Under the pieces are notes generated by a model that saw nothing but the letters and a program-made list of their open reading frames with translations, did not search any database and had not been told where the DNA came from. This document shows, piece after piece, positions 8,744 to 58,060 of a DNA stretch of 64,000 bases (position 1 is the stretch's first letter; each line of letters starts with the position of its first letter). Origin of the DNA: Eledone cirrhosa (taxonomy: Eukaryota). A program made the translations under genes and the position numbers. Where the stretch lies: positions 152,768,001-152,832,000 of the forward strand of contig OZ024740.1 in assembly GCA_964016885.1 (NCBI GenBank), written 5' to 3'.

Positions 8744-9282
8744 AAGTTAAATAAAAAGTCAAATGATTAAAATTTAGCTTCGTTTATTACTGCTATATAT
8801 ATTTCAGTGACAGCCATCTTTGGCTGTGACCTCTTCAGGCAGTTTGAATTAGTATGGTATAGACAAGTACATATGTTGTTGAGGTATATAATATTGTCAA
8901 TACTCTGATATGCCCAGTTCCTGGTTGGGTTGTTATTTCACTGAGGAACTGGATACAACTCATATGATTCCAGTTCCTCAGTGAAATAACAACCCAACCA
9001 GGAACTGGGCATATCAGAGTATTGACAATGTTATACACCTCAACAACATATGTACTTGTCTATACCACACTAATTCAAACTGCTTGAAGAGGTCACAGCC
9101 AAAGATGGCTGTCACTGAAATATATATAGCAGTAATAAACGAAGCTAAATTTTAATCATTTCACTTTTTATTTAACTTTATTTTACACTACTCCGGAGTA
9201 ACCAAACCAACCTGCGCACTTCGTCGAGTGCTCCAGCCTGCATACTGAGGTGTTGGTATACAACCAACATAAACTCAAAATC
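8744..9282 (+). mobile_element. Fold-back PLE pLTR remnant: arms 8744-8953 and 8969-9178 plus ~100 nt tail, in (TA)n
   Basis: 210-bp near-perfect inverted arms containing a hammerhead motif; (TA)n on both sides. Confidence 0.85.
8790..8842 (-). ncRNA. Type I hammerhead ribozyme motif
   Basis: CTGC-CTGAAGA-[GGTCACAGCCA AAGA TGGCTGTCACT]-GAAA-TATATA-TA-GCAG; stem I CTGC/GCAG. The mirror copy at ~9080-9132 reads TTGAAGA. Confidence 0.8.
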
Positions 9283-9844
9283 TATATATATATATATATA
9301 TATATACATATACTTATATGCATTACGTGTTATAAAAAAACGTATTTTCAAAATTATGAATGGAATATATAGATATATAGCGTTGTGATCTATCATCTTA
9401 GATGGACGGCATGCCCTGTCTCTTTTATGAGTTATTGGCAATATTTTACTATTTAATACGAAATGCGAAGTCCTTAAGTGAGAGAATTATTAAGTAGTTT
9501 CATTTATCGTTCTGGTCGGATGCACTAATATCATTTTAATATATAAAATTAAACATAGGAATGCATGTGTGTTCCATGCGGTAGGGGGGAGCTTTGCACC
9601 TAGGTAGCTGGAGTTTTGTAAAGGGACATATCTTTTAAAAGGTATGTGATTATTTCTGGTATAAGCCCAAGGTAGGCCAGGTACACCAGCTAATAATATA
9701 TATTTATTATTATATTCTTTTAAATGTTTTCATTTTATGTATGAGAAAATACTTTCTGTAAATATATATATATCAAAAGTTATTTGTCTCTAATATATAA
9801 AGACATCTCAACGAAAAGATAAAATATCAACTTAGAGAGATAAT

Positions 9845-10021
9845 TAAACATATTAAACTTAAGCCAAATTCTCGACTGGGGGATATAAGTTAGACAAACT
9901 AAAATAAATCAATTTTACTCATATACTATCATATATAGTTGCGGATAGTATATGAGTATAACTGACTTATTTAACTTATATCCTCCCAATCGATAATTAG
10001 GCTTAAGTTTAATATGTTTAT
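9845..10021. repeat. Diverged fold-back element beside (TA)n; related single arm at ~32470-32550
   Basis: taaacatattaaacttaagcc / ggcttaagtttaatatgttta and tactcatatactatc / gatagtatatgagta. Confidence 0.7.
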
Positions 10022-10068
10022 ATATATATATATATATATATATATATATATATATATATATATATATA

Positions 10069-10393
10069 TATTAAGACAGGAGGGAAGAAAAAATGGCTTC
10101 ACTTGTGCTTTCAACAAATTTATTTTCTTCACAAAATCCCAAAATTATTTTTTTCCGGATTAGAAAAAATATTTTTCTTAAAAAAAATTATTTTATAAAT
10201 TAATTTATAAAATTTTACAACTTAATTTATAAAATAATTTTTTTTAAGAAAAAAATTTTTTCTAATCCGGAAAAAAATTCTTTTGGGATTTTGTGAAGAA
10301 AATAAATTTGTTGAAAGCACAAGTGAAGCCATTTTTTCTTCCCCCCTGTCTTAATATACCTAACTGTACCAAGGATTACACACATTTTTCCAA
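10069..10393 (+). repeat. Fold-back element (arms ~10069-10203 and 10223-10356) plus ~37 nt tail, in (TA)n
   Basis: ttaagacaggagggaagaaaaaatggcttc... is mirrored by ...gaagccattttttcttcccccctgtcttaa; no ribozyme core seen. Confidence 0.8.
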
Positions 10394-10412
10394 TATATAT
10401 ATATATATATAT

Positions 10413-55503: not shown

Positions 55504-56333
55504 TATATCTATCTACCGATCTATCTGTTTGTCTATCTGACTGTCTGTCTTTCTACTTTAGAAAGTGTATATGGATGAATCAACCAATAAAAAGCCAACA
55601 CCTTAAATGAATTATTTTTGAAATCAGTAATGTGTTCCAATGTCCAACATCTAATATCCAAAGTCCATTGTAATGTGTGGAGTATACGATATTCTTAATT
55701 TATCTATCAGGAGCTAAAGAAAAAGAAAATCCAAAATGACCCATATTCTCAGTAGAGCTCCTAACTAAATTTAAGTGTTAAGAAAGCCACAATACTCTTT
55801 TTAGTTCACTGTTCCTGTTCCAGTGTCGAGGTGTGTGTGTGTGTGTGTGTGTGTAGGATGTCCCCTAAAAATGTACACACTTTGATTACCTGTACAGGCA
55901 ATATTTATTAGAATGGTGATGAAGTATGTATACATTTTTGAGAGACACCCTGTATATATATATACACACACACACACACACATATATATATATATATATA
56001 TATAGAGAGAGAGAGCGAGAGAGAGAGAGAGAGATAGAGAGGGAGAGGGGGTGAGAGAGAGAAATATATATATATATATAATATATGATTAGTACCTGCT
56101 ATATGACAGCTACAACTTCGATTCATACCTAATATACATATATATATATATATATATATATATATATATATATATATATATATATATTAATGTTATTGGA
56201 TGAGGTTTCAGCTTTCATTGATATTTTCCCTGAGGTTATTTGTATTTATGGCCAAGACATTAAATTCTGATTTCCCTAGGATGTATTCATTTGAATCGTT
56301 TGGACAAATGATTGCATTGCTTTCCAACTTTGA

Positions 56334-56403
56334 TTAGAAATTCTTGATCTCAACCTTCACACCATAGCTGTTTGTTCTCGACCTTCTATGATAGCCATGA
56401 CAC
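56334..56403 (-). CDS. Candidate terminal coding exon of an unidentified minus-strand gene: (x)CHGYHRRSRTNSYGVKVEIKNF*
   Basis: Acceptor aatttag| and an open, protein-like frame in non-repetitive sequence; no homologue recognised. Confidence 0.25.
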
Positions 56404-56461
56404 CTAAATTACTGACAAGTCACATGCAATACATATATTTCTTTTATTTAATCTGATTGTA

Positions 56462-57158
56462 ATAATTGTTTCTACTTTTGGCACAAGGCCAGCAATTATC
56501 TCAGTGCATTACTGGTACTTTATTTTATCGACCCCGTAAGGATGAAAGGCAAAGTTAACTTCGGCGGGATTTGAACTCAGAACGTAAAAAAACATAACTC
56601 TATGCTGCAAAGCATGGCGTCTGGCGCTGATGCTGATGTTGATGGTGACGGTGGTGGTGATGGTAATGGTGATGGTGATGGTGGTGTAATAATAATGATG
56701 GTGATGACAATGGTGATGATGACAATAATGATGACAATAGTGATGGTGATAATGATGATGATGACAAACATGATGGTGATAATGGTGATAATGATGGTGA
56801 TGGTGACAATAATAATGGTGATGATGGTGATAATGATGATGGTGGTGATGGTTATCATAATGACAATAATGAGAATTATGGTGGTGATAATGATGGCGAT
56901 GTTGATGGTGATGATGATGATGACAATTATGATGGTGATGGTGATGGTGATGGTGATCATGACAGTGATGATAATAATTGTTTCTACTTTTGGCACAAGG
57001 CCAGCAATCACCCAGTACATTACTGGTACTTTATTTTATCGACCCCGTAAGGATGAAAGGCAAAGTGAACCTCGGCGGGATTTGAACTCAGACCGTAAAG
57101 GGACGTAACTATGTTGGAAAGCATGACGTCCAACTCTCCACCGATACTGCCAATCCAC
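56462..57158 (-). mobile_element. Two SINE family A copies (56462-56626, 56973-57158) separated by a (GAT/GGT/AAT)n tract
   Basis: Diagnostic SINE core present twice; trinucleotide low-complexity sequence at 56627-56975. Confidence 0.85.
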
Positions 57159-57866
57159 CGTGATGATAATAATGGGGACGATGACAATAATTATGTTGAT
57201 GGTGATGATGATGTTACTGCTAAAGATCATGACAATAGTTATAGCGATGATGATAACGGTGATAACCCTTAGTGTATACAAAAACCTTATGTTAAATATA
57301 TTACAAAATTCTGGTTTCAATTCTTCACCGTACTCATTATAGCTTGACTTCCTTCAAAGAAACAATCTTGATGATTCCATAATAAAAAATCTTTAAAACA
57401 TTTTAAGATTAGTGAAGCATTAAAAAATGTTCACCTGACGCCGTCTATGGCGGCATTTTTCTGTTTTAACAGCTTTCTTGCGTTGAATTCTCATTGTTCT
57501 ATGAATTCTAATACACTCGAAACAAGAAAATAGTGTTTATATGTTTTATCACAGCTATATTAGCTTTCTGTTTTAGATGAATACCACGGCCTGAGGTTCG
57601 TTGGCCTATTCTGTCTCACTTCCTTTTTTCTCTTCTTTTGTTCTTCCTCTCTCTACCCTATTCTTCTCTTCTTCTTTCGTTCTTTCTCTCTCTCTCCCCC
57701 CCACTCTTCCCCTTTCTCCTTCCCACCGTTCTTGCTTGTCATCTCCGCAGCGCCAGGGTTTTTGTTGTCCTTTCTAGCGGGGACATGGTGCCTAGAGGAC
57801 GCCTTTTACTTCTCTCTCTCTCTCTCTCTCTATATATATATATATATATATATATATATATATATA

Positions 57867-58060
57867 TAGGAACCAGTAAGACCCCGACGGCTGAGCTCAA
57901 GCCGTTTCGACGGCTAATTCTGGACAGAATTAGCCGTCGAAACGGCTTGAGCTCAGCGGTCGGGGTCTTACTGGTTCCTATTACCCACTCTACTACCCCA
58001 AGTATTGAGTACTTTGGTGCGTTATGGTCCACCTGGTTCCTTACCACATTTCCTTCGTTA
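57867..58060 (+). mobile_element. Fold-back element (arms 57867-57921 and 57926-57980) plus 80 nt tail, in (TA)n
   Basis: taggaaccagtaagaccccgac...aattctg|ga|cagaatt...gtcggggtcttactggttccta. Confidence 0.85.

What the first reader, a model, noticed from the sequence alone, without database searches (positions are those of the whole stretch)
8744..58060. Many unrelated hairpin-plus-tail elements in (TA)n, often carrying hammerhead ribozymes
Seen: at least 13 fold-backs (8744, 9845, 10069, 10413, 12911, 13208, 16319, 18016, 20392, 22576, 26425, 27551, 35700, 57867) with arms of 22 bp to 1 kb. Most families have no mutual similarity but share one architecture: microsatellite, inverted arm, spacer, arm, unpaired 25-135 nt tail, microsatellite. 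More than ten loci contain CTGANGA...GAAA-palindrome-TH with a closing stem I. Established: PLE pLTRs carry minimal type I hammerheads and often insert with inverted 5' ends. Inference: these are products of a diverse (TA)n-targeting PLE/retrozyme-like system driven by the Naiad-type elements in this window, possibly with non-autonomous hairpin RNAs.
Basis: partly seen in the sequence, partly recalled or inferred. Interest (0 to 1): 0.85.

Follow-up and report, generated by a model that had tools for sequence, protein, structure and literature searches.

The report
Penelope retrotransposon hairpins in TA microsatellites
Half of these hairpins are, and the rest likely are, cut-short back-to-back copies of Penelope-like jumping genes inserted in TA repeats, a known arrangement; their fixed ends suggest each hairpin likely forms when two DNA copies, likely made from one RNA, are joined head to head.

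Summary
All 14 fold-backs are real, each with a one-sided 25-136 nt tail and microsatellite flanks, and the type I hammerhead motifs far exceed chance. They are not a new system. Seven of 14 (six families) continue, in longer copies elsewhere in the genome, into Penelope-like (PLE) coding sequence with a C-terminal GIY-YIG nuclease: three families with Hydra-clade motifs, one with a Hydra-like nuclease end, two other C-terminal types. None is Naiad. Inverted 5'-truncated copy, tail, (TA)n target and hammerhead are all published PLE/Hydra features. Hairpins do not look like units that replicate: the turn varies, and the one recurrent turn gives 609 matches against 21,538 for the common arm. The sample adds mechanism. 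Arm ends sit at two fixed sites; 51 of 56 unselected pairs join one tailed to one tailless arm; both arms share a haplotype (85 of 87); either arm can be longer (17:17); and 5' ends pile up at an initiator-like TCA. Best model (inferred): two primings on one RNA, run-off to the transcription start, end-joining. No RNA data were available. Known kind, useful natural experiment.

The parts
8744..9282 (+). Family A hairpin: inverted tailless arm 8744-8953, direct arm 8969-9178, 104-nt tail; hammerheads at 8838- and 9084+ (the latter C3U); direct side begins at TCA 8960-8962
   Evidence: longer copies run into a GIY-YIG C-terminus with CxxC and CxH (L032, L097)
9775..10018 (-). Hairpin G, 72-nt tail on the left; no ORF link found; relative at 32463-32594 shows only a 3' half hammerhead motif
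10071..10392 (+). Hairpin E, 140-bp arms, 38-nt tail; no hammerhead and no ORF link found
10413..12850 (+). Family F hairpin: about 1-kb arms (3' UTR with internal repeats and an internal (TA)n), 119-nt tail; hammerheads 10595- and 12549+ with 101-nt stem II; the 300-nt spacer belongs to the inverted arm
   Evidence: longer copies run into a Hydra-type ORF
12909..13022 (+). Hairpin L, 22-bp arms, 25-nt tail; unlinked
13209..13750 (+). Hairpin H with central (TA)n, 76-nt tail; degenerate hammerhead at 13348-; relative at 32684; unlinked
16322..16691 (+). Family D hairpin, 35-nt tail; hammerhead core at 16466-; longer copies end in a GIY-YIG with CX4CxxC linker (Neptune/Nematis type); TATA box and TCA upstream of the 5'-end cluster
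18018..18628 (+). Family C hairpin, 40-nt tail; hammerhead-shaped motif with altered core (CAGUUGA in 30 of 32 arms); longer copies carry RT plus C-terminal GIY-YIG, clade unresolved
20395..21095 (+). F-related hairpin (77% to 10413 element), 136-nt tail; hammerheads 20599- and 20755+ with 115-nt stem II; linked to an ORF only through its similarity to F
22575..22833 (-). Family I hairpin, about 76-81-nt tail on the left; family has a complete hammerhead in slightly longer copies; no copy reaching an ORF among 45 arms; solo relative at 20128-20328
26424..26850 (-). Family B hairpin, tail on the left; hammerheads 26614- and 26752+; tailless solo relative 42786-42914 (hammerhead 42818+)
   Evidence: repeat plus tail directly precedes a 742-aa Hydra-type ORF with one stop (L100)
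27550..27783 (-). Hairpin K, 37-nt tail on the left; complete hammerhead at 27704+ in the longer, tailless arm; unlinked
35690..35895 (-). Hairpin J, 69-nt tail on the left, (TG)n on that side; Hydra-style hammerhead at 35824+ with one mismatch (read by eye); unlinked
57869..58058 (+). Family Z hairpin, 54-bp arms, 80-nt tail; holds only the 3' half of the family's U3-A8 hammerhead; solo relatives at 47403-47537, 29282-29388, 15748-15791
   Evidence: repeat plus tail precedes an open 786-codon Hydra-type frame (L224:6878-9235)
198..8410 (+). Decayed Hydra-type PLE: RT part 198-1799, nuclease part about 6575-7055, 3' UTR with hammerhead 8307+, tailless end 8410. Its inverted arm (window 1-152 and upstream, L094) carries the tail. 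Split by a non-LTR retroelement on the minus strand at about 1800-6560
42949..47078 (-). Decayed Hydra-type PLE in partial tandem: upstream repeat 47078-46898, frameshifted ORF 46720-44316, 3' repeat 43130-42949

Best explanation
Seven of the 14 hairpins are, and the other seven likely are, 5'-truncated insertions of Penelope-like retrotransposons (mostly Hydra-type) in (TA)n, in which a tailed copy and a tailless copy of the element's 3' end lie head to head, likely because reverse transcription was primed twice on the same RNA and the two cDNAs were joined. Shown: the 3' ends fall at two fixed sites per family; pairs are tail plus tailless; both arms share a haplotype; either arm may be longer; junctions have 0-4 nt overlaps or untemplated inserts; 5' ends cluster at a TCA. 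Inferred: the GIY-YIG nuclease cuts both strands of (TA)n; one target end primes at the distal start site (giving the tail) and the other at the proximal site; on mRNA started from the promoter in the terminal repeat both run off at the RNA 5' end after about 50-300 nt, which gives the abundant short hairpins; host end-joining links them. Longer arms would come from read-through RNA. The hammerhead is a passenger of the terminal repeat; its cleavage was not tested. Odds: PLE identity about 0.93, two-cDNA join about 0.7, wall equals transcription start about 0.6.
For: ORF links for families A, B, C, D, F, Z. Hydra motifs RxRWR, DKT, CxCx5C, CxxC and CxH in B and Z; CxCx5C in both window PLEs, the rest in PLE2. 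These match the clade definition and the listed Hydra proteins by eye. 3' ends are bimodal in 6 of 6 families. Z sampled by consecutive pattern hits plus unselected blocks: 51 of 56 pairs tail/tailless, 0 tail/tail, 4 tailless/tailless, 1 unclear; arm variants concordant 85 of 87 versus 20% mean and 35% maximum in 2000 permutations. Of 38 short junctions, 17 have the tailed arm longer, 17 the tailless, 4 equal; 25 have 0-4 nt overlap and 13 have 1-23 nt inserts; the same 4-nt junction occurs in both polarities, 2 and 4 times. Of 82 Z arms, 20 are long and 61 of the 62 short ones stop within 5 nt upstream of the pattern, i.e. at or inside the TCA. Cluster edge to nearest TCA: A 2, B 0, D 4, Z 0, C 7 nt; for C it is 1 nt using the TCA seen in 11 of 12 longer copies. 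D has TATATAAG 28 nt upstream of the TCA. Two RT start sites flanking the tail, and extension of both target strands, were shown in vitro for Poseidon (PMC11167929).
Against: Seven of 14 fold-backs have no ORF link (only family I had its own genome search). The TCA test is post hoc, its edges come from BLAST ends, and TCA is common. The Z wall also coincides with an RNA loop in the predicted fold, so an RT stop or RNA cut is possible. Arm concordance could also reflect subfamilies active at different times, or gene conversion. Large arm-length differences could be later deletions of the palindrome centre. In families A-D pair counts are biased because the queries included the tail. Up to 4 tailless/tailless pairs exist. 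Clade calls rest on motifs, not on a tree with reference proteins.
Confidence: 0.8

Rival explanations
1. Snap-back: one cDNA, primed at the tail end, folds back at its 3' end (or an antisense RNA self-primes, as proposed in PMC3846280) and copies itself; the nuclease resolves the second end at the tail boundary.
For: Explains identical haplotypes in both arms and short overlaps at the turn. PMC3846280 (passages) reads junction palindromes this way; PMC8557442 ascribes the tail to nuclease resolution.
Against: The tailless arm is the longer one in 17 of 38 short junctions, including 4 of 6 with the same 4-nt overlap, and by hundreds of nt in some A and B copies and in the window's F element. 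A copy of the tailed cDNA cannot contain sequence its template lacks. Untemplated inserts occur in 13 of 38. Tailless solo copies reach the ORF in direct orientation.
Confidence: 0.15
2. Some hairpins are non-autonomous hairpin RNAs or retrozymes that replicate as a unit using PLE proteins.
For: 41 Z loci match the window's 190-nt hairpin at 98-100%, turn included, and the 30 inspected have different flanks. Family I shows no copy reaching an ORF among 45 arms. Six more fold-backs are unlinked.
Against: That turn gives 609 matches against 21,538 for the common arm, and many other turns exist. A shared subfamily change appears in both arms at once. Full-reference-length copies are only about 0.5-13% of arms in the linked families, so 0 of 45 is unremarkable.
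Confidence: 0.1
3. The fold-backs are MITE/DNA-transposon TIRs, or assembly fold-back artefacts.
For: TA-flanked inverted repeats are typical of Tc1/mariner MITEs (recalled); long-read chimeras can make palindromes (recalled). Raw long reads were not examined.
Against: Arms differ by up to 18%, one end carries a family-fixed tail, the turn varies, six families lead into RT/GIY-YIG coding sequence, and a nested retroelement interrupts one PLE.
Confidence: 0.03

Closest known systems
Hydra clade of C-terminal EN+ PLEs (Craig et al. 2021, PMC8557442; e.g. Hydra-1_Obim, Penelope-13_HM)
   Same: RT then GIY-YIG; RWK-like, DKT, CxCx5C, CxxC and CxH motifs; (TA)n insertion; canonical hammerhead in the 3' repeat; Penelope-13_HM is listed with a 5'-truncated inverted copy and a hammerhead on both strands.
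   Different: Many coexisting families at very high copy (one Z 25-mer has 21,538 exact matches); tails of 77-136 nt in A, B, F, Z against the 30-40 bp described; 3' UTRs up to about 1.3 kb; hammerheads with 101-115-nt stem II (F) or a U3-A8 core (Z).
Poseidon PAc of Anolis (Frangieh et al. 2024, PMC11167929)
   Same: Two RT start sites bounding the tail; both target strands cut and extended; AT-rich target.
   Different: Shown in vitro there, inferred from genomic copies here. In the parts read, that paper does not model the inverted arm or a 5' wall.
Penelope of D. virilis and A. vaga (PMC2377424, PMC3846280)
   Same: Inverted terminal repeats, optional tail, promoter with initiator (and TATA in A. 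vaga) inside the repeat.
   Different: PMC3846280 proposes self-priming on an antisense template; the arm-length symmetry here argues against a single snap-back.
Naiad PLEs
   Same: (TA)n bias, inverted 5' copy, tail.
   Different: N-terminal nuclease and no canonical hammerhead; not what any linked family shows.
Metazoan non-LTR retrozymes (10.64898/2026.07.22.740005)
   Same: Type I hammerheads related to PLE repeats.
   Different: Retrozymes are non-coding head-to-tail tandems; these are head-to-head ends of coding elements.

Membership tests
EN+ Penelope-like element | RT plus GIY-YIG in one ORF | tested here: met
   Families B, C, F, Z and both window PLEs. For A and D only the nuclease end was tied to the repeat. 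Not found for 7 of 14 fold-backs.
EN+ Penelope-like element | Partial tandem or inverted pseudo-LTR with one-sided tail | tested here: met
   tandems at L100, L136-L138/L224 and window 42949-47078
Hydra clade | C-terminal nuclease; RWK-like, DKT, CxCx5C linker, CxxC and CxH, no CCHH | tested here: met
   B and Z all motifs, PLE2 all, PLE1 linker; F linker and CxxC; A nuclease end. Absence of CCHH judged by eye.
Hydra clade | Groups with Hydra in an RT phylogeny | not tested
   No reference proteins were available in the script box; similarity to the Hydra alignment in the supplement was judged by eye only.
Hydra clade | (TA)n insertion and canonical hammerhead | tested here: met
   Z has the U3-A8 variant in 15 of 19 distinct long copies
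Naiad | N-terminal GIY-YIG before RT | tested here: not met
   Nuclease follows RT or ends the ORF in all linked families
Naiad | No canonical hammerhead | tested here: not met
Neptune/Nematis (families D, C) | CX2-5CxxC linker before a C-terminal GIY-YIG with CCHH | tested here: inconclusive
   D has CX4CxxC; C has a different Cys linker; no tree
Non-LTR retrozyme | Non-coding head-to-tail tandem units, each with a hammerhead | tested here: not met
   Head-to-head arrangement; coding parents for six families
MITE / TIR DNA transposon | Inverted repeats at both termini, fixed internal structure, no RT parent | tested here: not met
   One-sided tail and variable turn
Type I hammerhead ribozyme | Core, three stems, UH site | tested here: met
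   different stem sequences in different families keep pairing; C has an altered core
Type I hammerhead ribozyme | Self-cleavage | not testable with these tools
   needs an in vitro assay

The most novel reading that the evidence does not exclude
PLE inverted repeats are made by double priming on one RNA: a dimeric RT/nuclease uses the distal and proximal start sites on opposite target strands, both cDNAs run off at the transcription start in the terminal repeat, and end-joining fuses them. The short hairpins (about 70 per Mb in unselected blocks) would then be a genome-wide record of each family's promoter and both RT start sites. This answers the open question of how the tandem/inverted PLE structure forms and displaces the self-priming model.
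Probability: 0.5. Interest if true: 0.62.

Novelty: new member of a known kind. Interest (0 to 1): 0.42.

Why it matters
The architecture is known, so this is no new system. But how PLEs make inverted repeats and tails is named as unresolved in PMC8557442 and PMC3846280. This genome offers more than ten thousand young copies in one family, with haplotypes and an open ORF (L224), so the competing models give different, countable predictions. It also shows that the Hydra clade, described from 27 listed families, can be a major repeat class, and that such genomes carry very many cryptic fold-backs and hammerheads that Rfam misses.

Tried and rejected
Rfam scan: no hammerhead hit, only miRNA-like noise below gathering scores. 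Tail-only search for Z returned nothing because common words are skipped. The first Z search suggested a unit-length replicating hairpin; rejected after counting turns. An apparent arm-specific substitution in family A (position -120, discordant in 9 of 10 pairs) was not tied to arm type and was traced to ascertainment: the window carries a rare allele (other letter in 56,682 of 56,802 depth in X1) and the search picks rare words. One search's discordance counts are therefore not used; concordance was redone on unascertained Z loci. The exclusion filter failed (30 of its 61 pairs were selected); replaced. The first script run on the Z hammerhead crashed part-way, rerun. A cap-derived extra G at junctions was looked at by eye: too few clear cases. 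Expression: no RNA holder listed. One search shows one opposite-strand join in contigs of X1 and X2, but these runs may be the assembled sample and the library is not on record, so it is not counted as support. A second read lay did not complete. Earlier scan notes: none. Paper search for C3U/G8A found nothing. No tree and no structure prediction were run.
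Full report
OBSERVATION. The window lies at G000:C1:152768001-152832000 in a 3.0-Gb genome; the host was not identified. All 14 listed fold-backs are present: arms of 22-1059 bp, 82-100% identical, an unpaired 25-136-nt stretch at one end only, microsatellites outside. Five are on the minus strand (tail at left). 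A hammerhead descriptor finds 9 CTGANGA sites in 7 loci against 0.13 per shuffle (30 shuffles); a second descriptor gives 9 against 0.05 (60 shuffles). Rfam finds none.

WHAT THEY ARE. I searched the genome with the 3' ends of families A, B, C, D, I, with F (twice) and with Z and followed long copies upstream. A runs into the C-terminus of a GIY-YIG domain. B's repeat and tail directly precede a 742-aa RT/GIY-YIG frame with one stop. Z's precede an open 786-codon frame in a tandem array. F runs into a similar frame. C runs into RT plus C-terminal GIY-YIG of another type, and D into a nuclease with a CX4CxxC linker. That accounts for 7 of 14 fold-backs (20392 only through 77% similarity to F). 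The other seven were not linked in about 1.4 Mb of fetched loci; only I had its own genome search. B, Z and the window's two decayed coding elements carry Hydra-clade marks as defined in PMC8557442 (passages; supplement). That supplement lists (TA)n preference for 26 of 27 Hydra families, hammerheads for most, and one family with an inverted 5' copy. The same paper describes the inverted 5'-truncated copy and one-sided tail as general PLE features and states that Naiads have an N-terminal nuclease and lack canonical hammerheads.

ARE THE HAIRPINS UNITS? At first Z looked like one: 41 loci matched the whole 190 nt, and the 30 inspected had unique flanks. But that search ranks by similarity. The common Z arm 25-mer has 21,538 exact matches; the window's turn has 609. 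In A and B the outer ends are fixed and the turn varies. A subfamily substitution appears in both arms together. So hairpins are most simply remade at each insertion.

RULES SEEN IN THE COPIES. (1) 3' ends are bimodal, tail end or tail start, in 6 of 6 families. (2) In Z loci chosen only by an arm pattern or taken from unselected blocks, 51 of 56 head-to-head pairs join a tailed to a tailless arm; none is tail/tail, 4 are tailless/tailless, 1 is unclear. Across A-D and Z, one search gives 107 asymmetric, 2 tail/tail, 1 tailless/tailless and 7 unclear, after setting aside 29 selected Z pairs; A-D are biased toward tails. The window's large PLE obeys the rule with the tail on the inverted arm. 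(3) At four polymorphic columns the two arms agree in 85 of 87 informative comparisons; shuffled partners give 20% on average, 35% at most. (4) Among 38 short Z junctions the tailed arm is longer in 17, the tailless in 17, equal in 4; 25 show 0-4 nt overlap and 13 show untemplated inserts of 1-23 nt. (5) 5' ends hit a wall: of 82 consecutive Z arms 20 are long and 61 of the 62 short ones end within 5 nt upstream of the pattern start, at or inside a TCA. Cluster edges lie 2, 0, 7, 4 and 0 nt from a TCA in A, B, C, D, Z (product of chance values 5e-7, but post hoc). C's reference copy has TCG where 11 of 12 longer copies have TCA, which puts it at 1 nt. D has TATATAAG 28 nt before the TCA, and A and D have CCAAT motifs further up (sequence printed).

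MECHANISM. PMC11167929 (parts 1-2 of 4 read) shows for Poseidon that both target strands are cut and extended, that RT starts at two internal sites bounding the tail, and that the protein is predicted to be a dimer. PMC2377424 and PMC3846280 (passages) place a promoter with an initiator in the terminal repeat. Combining these with rules 1-5, the likely path is: cut both strands of (TA)n; prime once at each start site on one RNA; on mRNA begun in the repeat both cDNAs run off at the 5' end; end-joining fuses them head to head. Rule 4 argues against a single snap-back, because the tailless arm often holds sequence the tailed arm lacks, and the same 4-nt junction occurs in both polarities. Rule 3 fits one RNA but also time-separated subfamilies or conversion. 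The wall could instead be an RT stop or cut at an RNA loop; in Z it coincides with a predicted loop in stem II, although the junctions do not retain the natural 5' strand of that hairpin. None of these steps was observed directly. I did not find this combined model in the passages read or in paper searches; subscription papers and older PLE reviews are outside the library, and most of the Craig supplement was not read.

HAMMERHEADS. They sit in the terminal repeat, so a hairpin has two if both arms are long enough. F has a stem II of 101-115 nt. Z has core UUGANAA in 15 of 19 distinct long copies and one copy folds as a three-way junction; U3-A8 covariation is a known active natural variant (PMC3088659, passages). 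In Z the wall lies inside the ribozyme, so short copies hold only its 3' half. C keeps the shape with an altered core in 30 of 32 arms and may be inactive. Activity is untested.

SCALE. In 450 kb of unselected blocks there are 26 hammerhead sites (8 in one tandem array) and 31 fold-backs with a microsatellite at exactly one outer end. The window, with 10 by the same script in 64 kb, is richer but not unique.

RESULTS AGAINST, AND CORRECTIONS. Seven fold-backs are unlinked. Clades rest on motifs. One search's apparent arm-specific mutation was an ascertainment artefact. No RNA run was listed. Raw long reads were not examined.

VERDICT. Real, and explained by a known kind: new families of Hydra-type and other C-terminal-nuclease PLEs. 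The interest lies in the copy statistics, which make an open mechanistic question testable. Interest 0.42.

Noticed in passing
L232 (G000:C3:200070001-200080000): Eight hammerhead sites at about 470-510-nt spacing on both strands: a candidate tandem retrozyme or PLE-derived array.
   Followed up: no
window 14851-15317, 34878-35274, 40418-40843, 56454-57160, 31810-31940: A different dispersed repeat with a tRNA B-box-like motif, likely a SINE (recalled resemblance); forms inverted pairs not flanked by (TA)n, e.g. 34878-35274.
   Followed up: no
window 1830-6234 (-), 52248-55271 (+), 60689-62633 (+): Three decayed non-LTR retroelements, 73-80% alike, RVT_1 E=1.4e-13; one is nested in the first PLE. 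L1/Tx1-like is a recalled label.
   Followed up: partly
   Followed up: partly
family C, window 18018-18628: Hammerhead-shaped motif with core CAGUUGA in 30 of 32 arms: a conserved non-canonical core in a high-copy family.
   Followed up: partly
proximal RT start sites, several families: The tailless end often falls at a TA/TAT in the element, a possible microhomology to the (TA)n primer; seen by eye, not tested against the AT-rich background.
   Followed up: no
window 58300-59142: Integrase-core-like frame (rve E=0.001, below cutoff), probably an LTR-retrotransposon fragment.
   Followed up: no
window 47918-47963 (-): Histone 3' stem-loop-like match, 28.8 bits, below the gathering score of 34.
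   Followed up: no
window 10413-12850: Family F 3' UTR contains 120- and 234-bp internal duplications and a (TA)n tract that is copied into both arms.
   Followed up: partly
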